Below are positions 756-64,000 of a stretch of DNA of 64,000 bases, in pieces. The notes below the pieces were generated by a model. The model ran no database searches, was not told the origin of the DNA, and worked only from the letters and a program-made list of their open reading frames with translations. The stretch lies in NCBI GenBank assembly GCA_965228015.1, contig OZ245787.1, positions 929,536 to 993,535 on the forward strand. The letters are read 5' to 3'. The number at the start of each line of letters is the position of its first letter. Position 1 is the first letter of the stretch. The DNA comes from Peptococcia bacterium. GTDB lineage: Bacteria > Bacillota > Peptococcia > Peptococcales > SKKY01. A program made the translations under genes and the position numbers.

Positions 756-1718
756 TTATAAATTTAATACTTCTGCCATCTCATATAGTAAATTATCTAA
801 CATTTTCTTGTTTTCACTTTTTTCTTTAAAAGGAATAAGGACTTTCTGATTTCCCTGCACTCCCACCATATTTCCATGATTACTTTTCAGTAATTCTTCA
901 ACTGCCCAGTAACCTAATTTACTTGCAAGAATCTTATCAAAGGAACTTGGATTTCCTCCTCTTTGAATATGCCCTAATACAATTCTGTTTACATCCATGC
1001 CAAGATGTTGTTCCAACTTCTCTGAGAAAACATCTGATTTTTCAACACCTTCTGACAACACAATTATCCCGTGGGCTTTACCTCTGTTAAATCCGTCTTT
1101 TATCTTTTTTGCAGTTTCTTGATATGAAAAATCCCTTTCTGGAATTAATATATCTTCCGCTCCTCCGACGATACCCGCTGTAAGAGCAATCCAACCCGAG
1201 TTTCTTCCCATACACTCTACTACAAAAGTTCTTTCATGACTGGAAGCTATGTCTCTTATTTTATTTAAAGCACTTACTACAGTATCAACTGCTGTATCAA
1301 AACCTATAGTATATTCAGTTCCGTAGACATCATTATCGATTGTCCCTGGAATTCCTATTACCTTTACACCCAGTTTTTGAATTTCCCAGGCTCCCCGAAA
1401 TGAACCATCTCCACCAATTACTACCAATGCATCTATTTCATTTTTATCCAAAATAAAACTTGCATATTTTTGGCCTTCTTTGGTTTTAAATGATTCACAA
1501 CGTACTGTTTTAAGTATTGTTCCTCCACGTTAGATGATATCGGAAACACTTGTCATATTCATTTCATAAAAGGAATTATCTGTAAGACCCTGGTATCCTC
1601 TTTCAAAGCCTACAACTTTAATATTATTATATATTGCTGTCCTTACAACACTTCGAATAGCTGCATTCATTCCTGGTGCATCCCCACCACTGGTTAAAAG
1701 TGCAATTTTTCTTATCAT
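756..1718 (-). pseudogene. pfkA: 6-phosphofructokinase interrupted by in-frame TAA at 1530-1532
   Basis: [31 protein letters not shown] motifs; frame reads SVSDII*RGGTILKT across the stop. Confidence 0.9.
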
Positions 1719-1731
1719 TTATCTATCCTCA

Positions 1732-1953
1732 CTATTCTCCGGACTTGATAACACCGTGCTTTGTATATAATTCAACATTACCTCTGATTTTCATTGCAGA
1801 GGTCTGCTCTGTAAATTGGGCAATTAATATTTCATTTTTATCAATTTTCTCTGTATGATGGAGTTTAGTATCTTTTCCTCTGGTTATTCCGCTAATATTA
1901 ACTCCATTTTCCAAAGCTTTTATAACAATATAGTCATTACCATTATTCTCCAT
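1732..1953 (-). CDS. mtrB: Trp RNA-binding attenuation protein (TRAP)
   Basis: VIKALENGVN..G.TRGKDTK.HHTEK.DK.E..IAQFTE.TSA.K.RG matches TRAP; usual dnaE-mtrB-pfkA-pyk context. Confidence 0.92.
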   Translation of the reverse strand: MENNGNDYIVIKALENGVNISGITRGKDTKLHHTEKIDKNEILIAQFTEQTSAMKIRGNVELYTKHGVIKSGE

Positions 1954-62349: not shown

Positions 62350-62351
62350 TA

Positions 62352-64000
62352 CTATTCAACACCTCTGAATAAGCGCCCTGCAGTTAATCCTTCTGGAGAA
62401 AGTACGGACATTTTTTCAATATTATCTTTTTTTATTTTTACATTTCCTCTTTTATTATATAAATCAATCTGTTCTTTATACATTTTTGTTTTTTGATAAA
62501 TGTTATCTGGAGAATCTAATCTTCCTTCAATCCTGTAAACATCAATTTTGCTTTTAATTATTTTTTCCATGTCTCTGTAAAGAGATAGCTCCTTAACATT
62601 ATATAAATACATCTTACAGTTATAGTCAAAAGCAAGGGGCATATTGAAATTTTTCCTGTCTTTAAAGAAATGACTATCACTGCAGGATACTTCAGGTGAC
62701 TTATTCTTTTTCATACAATAACCTGAGGATTCCAATACACAATATTCAGTAGTTATTAATGGGAAATTACCTTGAATTAAGACTTCTTTTTCAATTTCGC
62801 TATTATTTATGTTATTTAATTGATCTAATGATAGCTCTGGTGATAGAGTAATCCTTCGGACTCCTTCTTTTTCAAACAAATCAACCGCCCAGGAATTAAA
62901 AGTATTTAAAGTATATTCTCCATTAATTTCTGGCGAGATATCCTCTAATAAGCTTAGCCCGGAAGGATTGGCTACTGAAAAGTTTTTACATCCGGCTGAA
63001 TAAATATTTTTAATTAAGTTTTTATAATAATCAAACTGACCTTCTTTGATTATTCCAGGAATTATAAAATTAAGTTCACATTTATTTTCACATAACTCAA
63101 TTGCATCTGAAATATCTTTTTCAGAAAGCTTTTTAAAGCTTCTTAATGTTTCAAGATAAAGATAAATTATATCTGCTCCACCTTCAATAGCTGCCTTTAC
63201 CCCTTCTAAAGAACTTAAGGAAACTGAAAGCTTTTTATCTTTTTTGCTATCTTTTTCTGTAAGAATGGGCATCTTTTTAATAAACTCATCATAATCTGGC
63301 AAGTTAACTCTCTTAAATTCACTCAAGCTGGCTTCCTGAAGTTTTTCAGTAAAATCTTTTCTTATATTATTCAATTCTTTCAAAGGTACAATAACTTCAC
63401 CCTTAATATCGGCAGTGAGGCTTCTTGTTTCATAGGGTGTATTTCCAAGACGTGAAAACTGTTCTAATATTGTTTCTTCCGTTAAGGGTCTCTTTAAAGC
63501 TTTTTCTGCAGGAACTGCTCCCTGTCCTTCAATAATATTTCCTTTTTCATCAGTAATTTTATAGTTAATATTTTCTCCTTCTTTAACTGTAACCACCACA
63601 TCTATATATTGCTTATTTGTAACTCTTGAAGAAGAAAAGGTGTCCCTGGCTTTTTTTGTAAAATACTATCCCTTGTTTTATACAAAAGCTCTCCTAAACG
63701 AAGCCTGCTTTTAAAGGAAATTTCAATTGTTTCACCCTTTTTGCCAGAAATGGTTATTTCTCCAGCTTGTGGTCCATTATAGCTGTCAATAACAAAACCA
63801 TCACCAATATTTAAATCCTCGATAAGTTTTATGTGAGCCTTACCACCTTTTAAAAAAACAACTTTACCTGCAGGGATTCCGGCATTGTTTGGCTTTTCCC
63901 AAGACATTCCATCTTTACTTAATTTCCCAAAATAATGGCCACTACCAGCACCTCTGCTAAAAGCCTGGTCCAATTCTTTAATTGTGTTTGGATCTACTGA
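62352..64000 (-). pseudogene. U32 peptidase family with DUF3656-like region, frameshift at A7 run (~63650); runs off window
   Basis: FSRG, LGNTPY, LNTFNS, RITLSPEL, YRIEGR, TAGRLFRGVE; KKARDTF restored by adding one A. Confidence 0.82.

What the first reader, a model, noticed from the sequence alone, without database searches (positions are those of the whole stretch)
756..64000. Selective genome erosion: transition nonsense codons and homopolymer contractions in dispensable genes only
Seen: at least 11 in-frame stops (1530, 11171, 16180, 19247, 24421, 25338, 26305, 29136, 29334, 30450, 54774). Where a second IS copy shows the ancestral codon it is CAA or TGG. About 17 single-base frameshifts, most restorable by adding one base to a homopolymer, hit the SSS symporter, nucleoside kinase, thrB, DUF512, HAD, U32, plsY and the ISs. 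dnaE, mutS2, ispH-rpsA, der, tyrS and trpS contain many A/T runs of 6 or more and are intact. Differences between IS copies are nearly all transitions. Known: this pattern characterises recently host-restricted or bottlenecked lineages with weakened repair. Inference: a clostridial lineage in early-to-mid reductive evolution. Long-read homopolymer error followed by selective polishing is the main alternative.
Basis: partly seen in the sequence, partly recalled or inferred. Interest (0 to 1): 0.7.

Follow-up and report, generated by a model that had tools for sequence, protein, structure and literature searches.

The report
Recent gene decay in a digester Clostridium
One lineage of an uncultured anaerobic-digester Clostridia species has picked up many insertion sequences and broken about a quarter of the genes in this window, while its closest relatives keep them intact: a real but familiar kind of early genome decay, not a sequencing artefact.

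Summary
All 11 listed stop codons are in-frame nonsense lesions in recognisable genes: pfkA, nucleoside kinase, a Zn-ribbon gene, lysC, thrB and six in IS transposases. Seventeen window-derived indels hit 10 host genes.

Independent short-read assemblies of the same species (96-98% nucleotide identity) and of a sister species carry intact copies of every broken gene. They have no IS at most of the same sites, though the two IS3a insertions are probably shared with one conspecific strain.

The lesions look like real mutations filtered by selection:
- There are no indels in 23.5 kb of other genes, against 9 in 1.3 kb of intergenic DNA.
- Several indels are not in homopolymers, and one is a 23-nt tandem duplication.
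- Broken genes show raised nonsynonymous:synonymous counts.
- Intact genes also show about twice the ratio seen between relatives, so selection is relaxed across the compared regions.

- Only about a third of the frameshifts are a simple one-base homopolymer loss. Four are two-base losses and three are insertions.
- thrB's stop is a transversion.
- 'Dispensable genes only' is overstated, because plsY and pfkA are hit internally.
- The IS3 orfA/orfB shift is probably a programmed frameshift.
- Weakened repair is untested.

This is a new member of a known kind, of moderate interest.

The parts
1..742 (-). pyk (pyruvate kinase), N-terminal 247 codons. Intact; runs off the window.
   Evidence: translation; the sister-species locus L178 has pyk directly after pfkA.
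756..1718 (-). pfkA pseudogene. Single in-frame TAA at 1530-1532 (CAA in the sister species).
   Evidence: The read-through translation matches ATP-PFK profiles end to end.
5953..7367 (+). ISL3-family IS, copy 1. Transposase split by a -1 in an A run (~6291-6297), with two further small indels upstream.
   Evidence: Absent in sister species L177/L178.
8763..10151 (-). Sodium:solute symporter pseudogene. -1 at 9962 (CCC>CC), -2 at 9881 (T8>T6), in-frame -3 at 9358.
   Evidence: Conspecific L184 and sister species L178 are intact (465 aa).
10196..11501 (+). IS3-family IS, copy A. orfB has a -1 at 10715 (A7>A6) and TAA at 11171. The A8 tract at 10583-10590 is probably the natural orfA/orfB slippery site.
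   Evidence: Absent in L184 and the sister species. The contig end of L183 coincides with its insertion site.
15625..16933 (+). IS3-family IS, copy B. orfB has TAA at 16180 (CAA in copy A).
   Evidence: A 3-nt overlap of the flanking alignments suggests a target duplication.
18375..20014 (-). PRK/uridine-kinase-type nucleoside kinase pseudogene. TAG at 19247 (CAG in relatives) and -1 at 18609 (A7>A6).
   Evidence: Intact at 542 aa in L177-L181.
22171..23900 (+). IS110-family IS (transposase 22487-23781, frameshift in the overlap 23197-23248). Sits at a synteny breakpoint next to tRNA-Pro (24000-24076).
24119..24481 (-). Zn-ribbon gene pseudogene. TAG at 24421 (CAG in the conspecific) and -1 at 24406.
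   Evidence: 120 aa in L182.
24492..25718 (-). lysC (aspartate kinase) pseudogene. Single TAA at 25338 (CAA in the conspecific).
25741..26644 (-). thrB (homoserine kinase) pseudogene. TGA at 26305 (GGA in the conspecific, a transversion) and -2 at 26423 (A8>A6).
28500..31037 (+). Nested IS block. ISL3 copy 2 (28500-29599 and 30852-31037; TAA 29136, TAG 29334) is interrupted by a second IS3-type element (~29600-30851; TGA 30450, orfA frameshifts).
   Evidence: Absent in L001, L168 and L169. A 7-nt overlap of the flanking alignments suggests a target duplication.
32776..33384 (-). plsY pseudogene. -1 at 33083 (T7>T6, creates TAA at 33076) and +1 at 33030 (T5>T6), scrambling the conserved stretch FLNFKGGKGVATGFGICLF that is shared with L001.
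   Evidence: Intact at 198 aa in L168/L169.
34687..36033 (-). DUF512 radical-SAM gene pseudogene. Loss of a G at 35067 (AGA7>A8) and -2 at 34776 (A8>A6).
   Evidence: Intact at 450 aa in L084, L169 and L170.
42075..42905 (-). rluB with a -1 at 42195 (A7>A6), 16 codons before the stop. The tail is replaced and extended, so the gene is probably still functional.
45970..46660 (-). HAD-IB hydrolase pseudogene. +1 at 46587, 23-nt tandem duplication at 46300-46322, -2 at 46283 (G5>G3), +1 at 46187.
   Evidence: Intact at 224 aa in L168-L171.
48990..53799 (-). rRNA operon (16S-23S-5S). Full-length, high-scoring matches.
53955..55507 (-). UPF0236 (ISLre2-like) IS. TGA at 54774 and a frameshift near 54440-54554.
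   Evidence: Absent in L164/L166, with a 9-nt overlap of the flanking alignments.
57048..59944 (+). PBP1A with loss of a single A at 59676 (GGGG[A]TAAA). This splits off the last 85 codons, which form a second C-terminal repeat domain.
   Evidence: 965 aa in L164-L166.
59992..62349 (-). mutS2. The ORF is intact, but the nonsynonymous:synonymous count on this lineage is near neutral (16:12, against 7:32 between relatives).
62352..64000 (-). U32 peptidase-family gene pseudogene. -1 at 63650 (A8>A7). Runs off the window.
   Evidence: 815 aa in L164-L167.

Best explanation
The window is chromosomal DNA from a 1.9-Mb contig of an uncultured, 33% G+C Clostridia bacterium. Its species and sister species turn up in anaerobic-digester and bioreactor metagenomes.

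Shown:
- This lineage has gained seven IS copies of four families, making up 15% of the window.
- All seven IS copies are now themselves defective.
- There is one synteny break, at the IS110 element.
- Twelve of about 45 host genes carry derived lesions. Ten are disrupted internally and two only in the C-terminal tail.
- Purifying selection is relaxed about twofold even in the intact genes.

Inferred mechanism: a recent drop in effective population size, or a shift to a more dependent lifestyle, let slightly deleterious changes fix.
- The first hit to a gene that had become expendable (a C>T nonsense change, slippage in an A/T run, or a small deletion) removed all constraint on it.
- Later neutral hits then piled up in the same gene. 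The longest homopolymers decayed fastest, with 8-runs now at 6.
- Genes still needed were kept clean, or tolerated hits only in their last few codons.

Loss of lysC and thrB points to dependence on external threonine and aspartate-family amino acids. Loss of plsY and pfkA implies either paralogues elsewhere in the genome or scavenging. Both points are inferences.
For: 1. Every broken gene is intact in independent assemblies.
- Same species (96.2-98.3% nt): JGI 3300034524, Logan SRR28465797 and SRR11566844, NCBI GCA_964430015.1.
- Sister species (82-85% nt).
- These relatives lack the ISs at most of the same sites. The flanking alignments overlap by 2-9 nt, as target duplications would.

2. The distribution of window-versus-conspecific indels over 34.9 kb fits selection. 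There are 0 in 23.5 kb of other genes, 16 in nine lesion-bearing genes, and 9 in 1.3 kb of intergenic DNA (P=1.7e-7 for the intergenic excess).

3. Lesion types that homopolymer miscalling cannot make:
- 11 nonsense substitutions.
- Tandem duplications of 23 nt (genic) and 17 nt (intergenic).
- Loss of a lone A in PBP1A and of a lone G in DUF512; CCC>CC in SSS.

4. Substitution evidence that does not depend on indel calling (N:S = nonsynonymous:synonymous counts):
- Broken genes 48:36 against intact genes 128:225 on the same branch (P=4e-4).
- HAD, DUF512 and plsY: 19:14 on this branch against 11:31 between two intact conspecifics (P=0.006).
- Intact genes 128:225 against 52:182 between relatives (P=2e-4).

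5. Frameshifts co-occur with nonsense or duplication lesions (P=0.006-0.05). In rluB and PBP1A the shift lies in the last 7-9% of the gene.

6. Contrast case. The conspecific MAG L167 has 15 indels running through SpoU, pheS and pheT. That is what error-type lesions look like, because they ignore essentiality.

Against: - plsY is internally destroyed although gpsA and plsC next to it are intact, which is awkward for a thriving organism (roughly 38-45x by contig labels).
- The source looks like a long-read metagenome assembly. Contig names follow the ctgN_38x_l pattern that I recall as metaMDBG style, and the sample contains palindromic foldback contigs. I could not see reads.
- The three genes with exactly two out-of-frame hits (SSS, plsY, DUF512) each return to the original frame. 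The pairs lie 57-290 nt apart. I treat this as chance (roughly P=0.04-0.13), but it is odd.
- When U32 is included, the N:S contrast between broken and intact genes weakens to P=0.09.
- The branch called 'window' also includes the short stem of the conspecific clade.
- No truncated product was found in any other sample, so no lesion has been confirmed independently.
Confidence: 0.8

Rival explanations
1. Long-read consensus errors (homopolymer miscalls, possibly with selective polishing) create most of the frameshifts. Only the nonsense codons and IS insertions are real.
For: - About 10 of the 17 genic indels touch runs of 5 or more, and deletions dominate (13:4).
- That spectrum resembles the error-like indels of L167.
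- The contig naming suggests a long-read assembler, and the sample contains foldback contigs.
- The essential-looking plsY is hit.
- Errors can cluster regionally, as L167 shows.
Against: - No indel occurs in 23.5 kb of other genes, which hold dozens of A/T runs of 6-9 nt, while intergenic DNA is hit at about 6.9 per kb.
- About 6 indels are outside runs, and there is a 23-nt duplication.
- The genes hit show raised N:S, and many also carry nonsense codons.
- The clusters stop at gene boundaries: der sits untouched between plsY and DUF512.
- Other contigs of the same sample reproduce the plsY lesions, although they are not independent.
Confidence: 0.12
2. Ordinary strain-level gene turnover in a free-living species. 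A few accessory genes are decaying and mobile elements vary between strains, with no bottleneck or lifestyle change.
For: - Conspecific strains also differ in IS content. IS3-A is absent in L184 but probably present in the SRR28465797 strain.
- Several genes hit are plausibly accessory: HAD, U32, the Zn-ribbon gene, the symporter and the kinase.
- G+C content is unchanged against relatives.
Against: - 12 of about 45 host genes (27%) are damaged and 15% of the window is IS. By my knowledge free-living bacteria usually carry a few per cent pseudogenes.
- Central genes are hit (pfkA, plsY, lysC, thrB).
- N:S is about doubled in the intact genes too.
- Six conspecific or sister loci of 14-20 kb show no broken gene.
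Confidence: 0.06
3. A mismatch-repair-deficient mutator lineage. Loss of mutS or mutL drives both the transition-rich substitutions and the run-length indels, and selection is otherwise normal.
For: - IS copies differ by 39 transitions against 5 transversions.
- 8 of 9 polarised nonsense codons are C>T or G>A.
- Run-length changes dominate the indels, and three 8-runs have lost 2 nt.
Against: - The transition bias is not significantly above the lineage's ordinary coding differences (196:54; P=0.08).
- A mutator alone does not explain the IS gain or the raised N:S.
- At 1-3% neutral divergence, multiple hits in 8-runs are expected even with repair intact (my estimate from published slippage rates).
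- No mismatch-repair gene lies in the window.
Confidence: 0.15

Closest known systems
Recently bottlenecked or host-restricted lineages nested in free-living species (Shigella in E. coli, Yersinia pestis, Burkholderia mallei, Sodalis/SOPE, Mycobacterium leprae); from my knowledge
   Same: - IS proliferation compared with close relatives.
- Many young pseudogenes made by nonsense codons, homopolymer slippage and small deletions.
- Deletion bias, IS-associated rearrangement and raised dN/dS.
- Biosynthetic and transport genes lost first.
   Different: - This is an uncultured Clostridia species seen in anaerobic digesters and bioreactors, with no known host.
- All seven IS copies seen are already dead.
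- G+C has not shifted.
- Only 64 kb of 1.9 Mb has been examined.
Long-read (Nanopore or early PacBio) assembly frameshift artefacts
   Same: The indels are deletion-biased and often lie in A/T runs, splitting ORFs in an AT-rich genome. L167 in this same species is a likely example.
   Different: - The lesions avoid 23.5 kb of other genes but are dense in intergenic DNA.
- They include non-run deletions, tandem duplications and nonsense codons.
- They coincide with relaxed N:S.
IS3-family programmed -1 ribosomal frameshifting (orfA/orfB at an A6G/A7 motif); from my knowledge
   Same: Both IS3a copies keep an identical A8 tract at the end of orfA (10583-10590 and 16014-16021), where the frame changes.
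   Different: This is a normal feature of the family and should not be counted as erosion. The real lesions in these copies are the TAA codons and the A7>A6 change at 10715.

Membership tests
Early-stage reductive genome evolution (IS expansion plus pseudogenisation) | IS copies gained compared with close relatives | tested here: met
   Seven IS copies make up 15% of the window. They are absent at most of the same sites in conspecific and sister loci, and the flanks show duplication-like overlaps. The two IS3a insertions are probably shared with the SRR28465797 strain.
Early-stage reductive genome evolution (IS expansion plus pseudogenisation) | Pseudogene fraction far above that of relatives | tested here: met
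   12 of about 45 host genes are damaged in the window, against none in L164-L166, L168-L170, L177-L182 over the same genes. Tested for this window only; the genome-wide fraction was not testable.
Early-stage reductive genome evolution (IS expansion plus pseudogenisation) | Relaxed purifying selection across the genome (raised dN/dS) | tested here: met
   Intact genes give N:S 128:225 on this branch against 52:182 between relatives (odds ratio 2.0, P=2e-4). Based on raw counts over about 35 kb, not a model-based dN/dS.
Early-stage reductive genome evolution (IS expansion plus pseudogenisation) | Deletion bias in neutral DNA | tested here: met
   13 deletions against 4 insertions among the genic indels.
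Early-stage reductive genome evolution (IS expansion plus pseudogenisation) | IS-mediated rearrangement | tested here: inconclusive
   There is one synteny break exactly at IS110 and tRNA-Pro when compared with L182 and L001. The other side of the rearrangement was not seen.
Early-stage reductive genome evolution (IS expansion plus pseudogenisation) | Host restriction or obligate dependence | not testable with these tools
   The source of the sample is hidden. Relatives come from digester and bioreactor metagenomes (for the pulp-mill digester behind L083; the rest rests on record names).
Early-stage reductive genome evolution (IS expansion plus pseudogenisation) | Loss of DNA-repair genes and a shift towards A+T | tested here: inconclusive
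   nth is intact. mutS2 is intact but has near-neutral N:S. G+C is about 0.33 in both the window and its relatives. mutS, mutL and ung are not in the window.
Long-read homopolymer assembly error | Indels confined to homopolymers | tested here: not met
   About 6 of 17 are outside runs, and there are tandem duplications of 23 nt and 17 nt.
Long-read homopolymer assembly error | Lesions fall regardless of gene function or coding status | tested here: not met
   0 indels in 23.5 kb of other genes, 16 in 10.1 kb of nine genes, and 9 in 1.3 kb of intergenic DNA. Compare L167, where pheS and pheT are hit.
Long-read homopolymer assembly error | Read-level disagreement with the consensus | not testable with these tools
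   Reads are not available. Other contigs of the same sample agree with the window but are not independent.
Alternative genetic code (stop-codon reassignment) | One stop codon recurs in-frame at conserved sense positions | tested here: not met
   TAA, TAG and TGA all occur as in-frame stops. Relatives have ordinary CAA, CAG, GGA or TGG at those positions.

The most novel reading that the evidence does not exclude
An abundant lineage of a normally free-living digester Clostridia species, with a 1.9-Mb contig, has been caught at the very start of obligate dependence on a partner such as a protist host or a syntrophic or parasitised bacterium. It is already losing de novo phospholipid initiation (plsY), ATP-PFK glycolysis and threonine synthesis, while conspecifics at 96-98% identity remain intact. 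That would give a natural before-and-after pair for studying how symbiosis begins in Firmicutes.
Probability: 0.2. Interest if true: 0.65.

Novelty: new member of a known kind. Interest (0 to 1): 0.4.

Why it matters
If real, this is a clean natural example of the first steps of genome decay: IS burst, young pseudogenes and relaxed selection, in an uncultured environmental Firmicute. Intact conspecific genomes are available for direct comparison. Most such examples so far are pathogens or insect symbionts.

It is also a practical test case for pseudogene calling in long-read MAGs. The same species supplies one assembly whose split genes look biological (this window) and one whose split genes look like errors (L167). 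The tests that separated them are reusable:
- the distribution of indels between intergenic, intact and broken DNA;
- N:S in the genes that are hit;
- lesions outside homopolymers.

Tried and rejected
- Alternative genetic code: rejected, because all three stops occur and relatives have sense codons there.
- I first dismissed the stop at 24421, because the distant relative L001 has no gene there. The conspecific L182 reversed that: it has a 120-aa Zn-ribbon gene with CAG at that codon.
- An exact look-up of Der found nothing.
- The kinase search found only three distant hits.
- The truncated LysC product was found only in the same sample, so no lesion was confirmed independently.
- L083 (a pulp-mill digester hybrid Illumina+PacBio assembly, 75-87% nt) has many split genes that are intact here. 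I do not rely on it. Its dirty stretches could be PacBio gap-fill, and it is a different species.
- Relative-rate and spectrum tests with the distant outgroups L084 and L001 were uninformative, because the branches are saturated.
- Lesion clustering within the window alone is only marginal (P=0.02-0.07). The 'essential genes are spared' idea also does not hold, because plsY and pfkA are hit.
- The frame restoration in three two-hit genes is not functional compensation, because stop codons lie in the shifted segments.
- A RIP-like or deaminase attack on the IS copies was rejected, because the transition bias is not distinct from the background.
- Literature look-ups by accession number found only the pulp-mill paper.
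Full report
**What the window is**

The window is 64 kb of 33% G+C chromosomal DNA. It holds an rRNA operon on the minus strand (48990-53799), one tRNA-Pro, about 45 host genes, and seven insertion-sequence copies. 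The IS copies are two ISL3, two closely related IS3, a second IS3 type nested in one ISL3, one IS110 and one UPF0236 element.

An exact-protein look-up and a MutS2 search show that the window belongs to a 1,898,514-bp contig of ENA metagenome assembly ERZ25074352. Sibling contigs in that assembly are named ctgN_38x_l. I recall that pattern as the metaMDBG long-read assembler's format, so the error alternative had to be taken seriously.

**Checking the observation**

All 11 stops exist where stated, and each interrupts a homology-supported reading frame.
- pfkA has one TAA. With that codon masked, the translation matches ATP-PFK profiles over positions 1-322 of 323.
- The PRK-type kinase has one TAG.
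- lysC has one TAA and thrB one TGA.
- The stop at 24421, which I first dismissed, lies in a Zn-ribbon gene that is 120 aa in a conspecific.
- The other six stops sit in transposase genes.

Frameshifts were mapped against relatives at single-base resolution.
- There are 17 window-derived indels in ten host genes.
- Of the 17, 13 are deletions (eight -1, four -2, one in-frame -3), three are +1, and one is a 23-nt tandem duplication.
- Only five or six are the 'add one base to a homopolymer' type.
- About six are not in runs at all: a lone A in PBP1A, a lone G in DUF512, CCC>CC in the symporter, and the Zn-ribbon deletion among them.
- The frame change between IS3 orfA and orfB sits at an A8 tract conserved in both copies. 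It is probably the family's programmed site.

The IS copies differ by 39 transitions against 5 transversions.

**Relatives**

A Der-based scan first found only distant relatives: L001 at 76% nt and L084 at 81% nt. Both have intact orthologues and no IS block.

The MutS2 and FolD searches and exact look-ups then gave same-species loci at 96.2-98.3% identity. These come from JGI 3300034524, Logan assemblies of SRR28465797 and SRR11566844, and NCBI GCA_964430015.1. A sister species at 82-85% identity also turned up.
- Every gene broken in the window is full length in these relatives: HAD 224 aa, RluB, DUF512 450, PlsY 198, ThrB 301, LysC 408, Zn-ribbon 120, U32 815, PBP1A 965, PfkA 320, symporter 465, kinase 542.
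- Most of the window's IS insertions are absent in them. The flanking alignments overlap by 2-9 nt, as target-site duplications would.
- One short-read contig (L183) ends exactly at both IS3 insertion sites. Those two insertions are therefore probably shared with that strain and older than the gene lesions.
- At IS110, synteny with the conspecific ends.

**Real mutations or assembly errors?**

Four lines of evidence point to real mutations.

1. Distribution. Over 34.9 kb of same-species comparison, the window differs by 25 indels. None falls in the 23.5 kb belonging to genes without lesions. Sixteen fall in nine genes, and nine fall in only 1.3 kb of intergenic DNA (P=1.7e-7 for the intergenic excess). 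That is what purifying selection produces. Consensus errors would follow run content instead.

2. Kind. Nonsense substitutions, 17- and 23-nt tandem duplications, and deletions outside runs are not homopolymer miscalls.

3. Substitutions, which do not depend on indel calling (N:S = nonsynonymous:synonymous counts).
- In HAD, DUF512, plsY, thrB, lysC and the Zn-ribbon gene, N:S on the window branch is 48:36. Other genes give 128:225 (P=4e-4).
- HAD, DUF512 and plsY give 11:31 between two intact conspecifics, against 19:14 on the window branch (P=0.006).
- Intact genes give 128:225 on this branch against 52:182 between relatives (P=2e-4). This is the reverse of what the usual excess of unpurged changes in very close comparisons would give.
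- Adding U32, whose many synonymous differences suggest an older or recombined tract, weakens the first contrast to P=0.09.

4. A contrast case. The conspecific MAG L167 has 15 indels running through SpoU, pheS and pheT. That is the behaviour expected of errors, and the window does not show it.

Clustering within the window alone is weaker evidence (P=0.02-0.07). So is the co-occurrence of frameshifts with nonsense or duplication lesions (P=0.006-0.05).

**What remains awkward**

- plsY is destroyed in its conserved core, although der, gpsA and plsC around it are intact.
- The three genes with exactly two out-of-frame hits all return to the original frame. Stop codons in the shifted segments rule out functional compensation, so I treat this as chance.
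- Three palindromic foldback contigs of this region exist in the same assembly.
- I could not inspect reads, and no other sample carries the truncated products.
- A minority of the run-length changes could therefore still be errors.

**Age and mechanism**

The repaired DUF512 reads as a complete 450-aa protein. It shows no excess amino-acid change against distant outgroups, and most broken genes carry only one to four lesions. The decay is therefore young, within the 2-3.5% divergence from conspecifics.

The IS copies differ by about 2% and each is already inactivated, so the IS burst seems to be over.

In the broken genes, three ancestral 8-nt runs now stand at 6 and a fourth at 7. Twelve runs of 8-9 nt persist in frame in intact genes. 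That fits fast, contraction-biased slippage acting only where constraint has gone.

Eight of nine polarised stops are C>T or G>A, and thrB's is G>T. The transition bias is not demonstrably higher than the lineage's ordinary differences. I therefore do not claim weakened repair.

**Comparison with known cases, and verdict**

The pattern matches the known syndrome of recently bottlenecked lineages nested within healthy species. Five of its defining features are met within this window. Host restriction and repair-gene loss could not be tested.

The finding is a new member of a known kind. It is useful as a natural before-and-after pair and as a benchmark for pseudogene calling in long-read MAGs, but it is not a new principle. 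I put the probability that this is real, recent erosion at about 0.8, and the interest at 0.4.

Noticed in passing
L081, L082, L176 (same ENA sample); window 29841-34552 and ~22400-26000: Three palindromic 'foldback' contigs (5-7 kb, labelled 6x, 38x and 45x) repeat parts of this region in inverted orientation. Two of them end inside IS copies. L082 also carries a 7-nt tandem duplication inside plsY at 33005. These could be chimeric-read artefacts or real inverted duplications.
   Followed up: partly
window 59992-62349 (mutS2): The ORF is intact, but it has 16 nonsynonymous against 12 synonymous changes on this lineage, compared with 7:32 between two conspecifics (P=0.001). It may be a gene that has lost constraint but has not yet been hit by a disabling lesion.
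   Followed up: partly
window 22171-24076; L182 14260-14500: Synteny with the conspecific and with L001 ends at IS110 next to tRNA-Pro. Relatives continue into GGDEF/HD/flavodoxin genes, whereas the window continues into the PAS-SpoIIE gene. This suggests an IS-associated rearrangement.
   Followed up: partly
L167 3240-7372 (NCBI GCA_040766065.1, same species): Fifteen small indels, mostly single-base deletions, split SpoU, pheS and pheT. The next 5 kb is clean. This looks like a regional assembly-error patch in a public MAG.
   Followed up: partly
L083 (JASEKR010006982.1, pulp-mill anaerobic digester, 75-87% nt to window 14217-22171): A more distant relative has PAS-SpoIIE, nth, mecA, type II secretion genes and the same nucleoside kinase split at different positions. 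Many of its indels are outside runs. This is either independent erosion in another lineage or PacBio gap-fill errors in a hybrid assembly.
   Followed up: partly
L171 4252-4355 (NCBI GCA_964430015.1): trpS is called as two pieces (279 + 87 aa) because of about 100 extra bases compared with L170 and the window. This is probably a local misassembly or duplication in that MAG.
   Followed up: no
window 62352-64000 (U32) against L164/L166: U32 has 53 synonymous-type differences from conspecifics in 1.65 kb, several times the density of neighbouring genes. This suggests a recombined or older allele tract.
   Followed up: no
window 55628-55644: A 17-nt tandem duplication (TTAAGATGTCTGGATTT) lies downstream of tyrS and is absent in conspecifics. 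Together with the 23-nt duplication in HAD, it hints that short tandem duplications are a recurrent mutation type here.
   Followed up: no
window 1732-1953 and 40454-40876: A TRAP (mtrB, TrpBP family) gene sits between pfkA and coaD. A HutP-family protein is 100% identical across eight contigs from several samples, which is unusually strong conservation for this clade.
   Followed up: no
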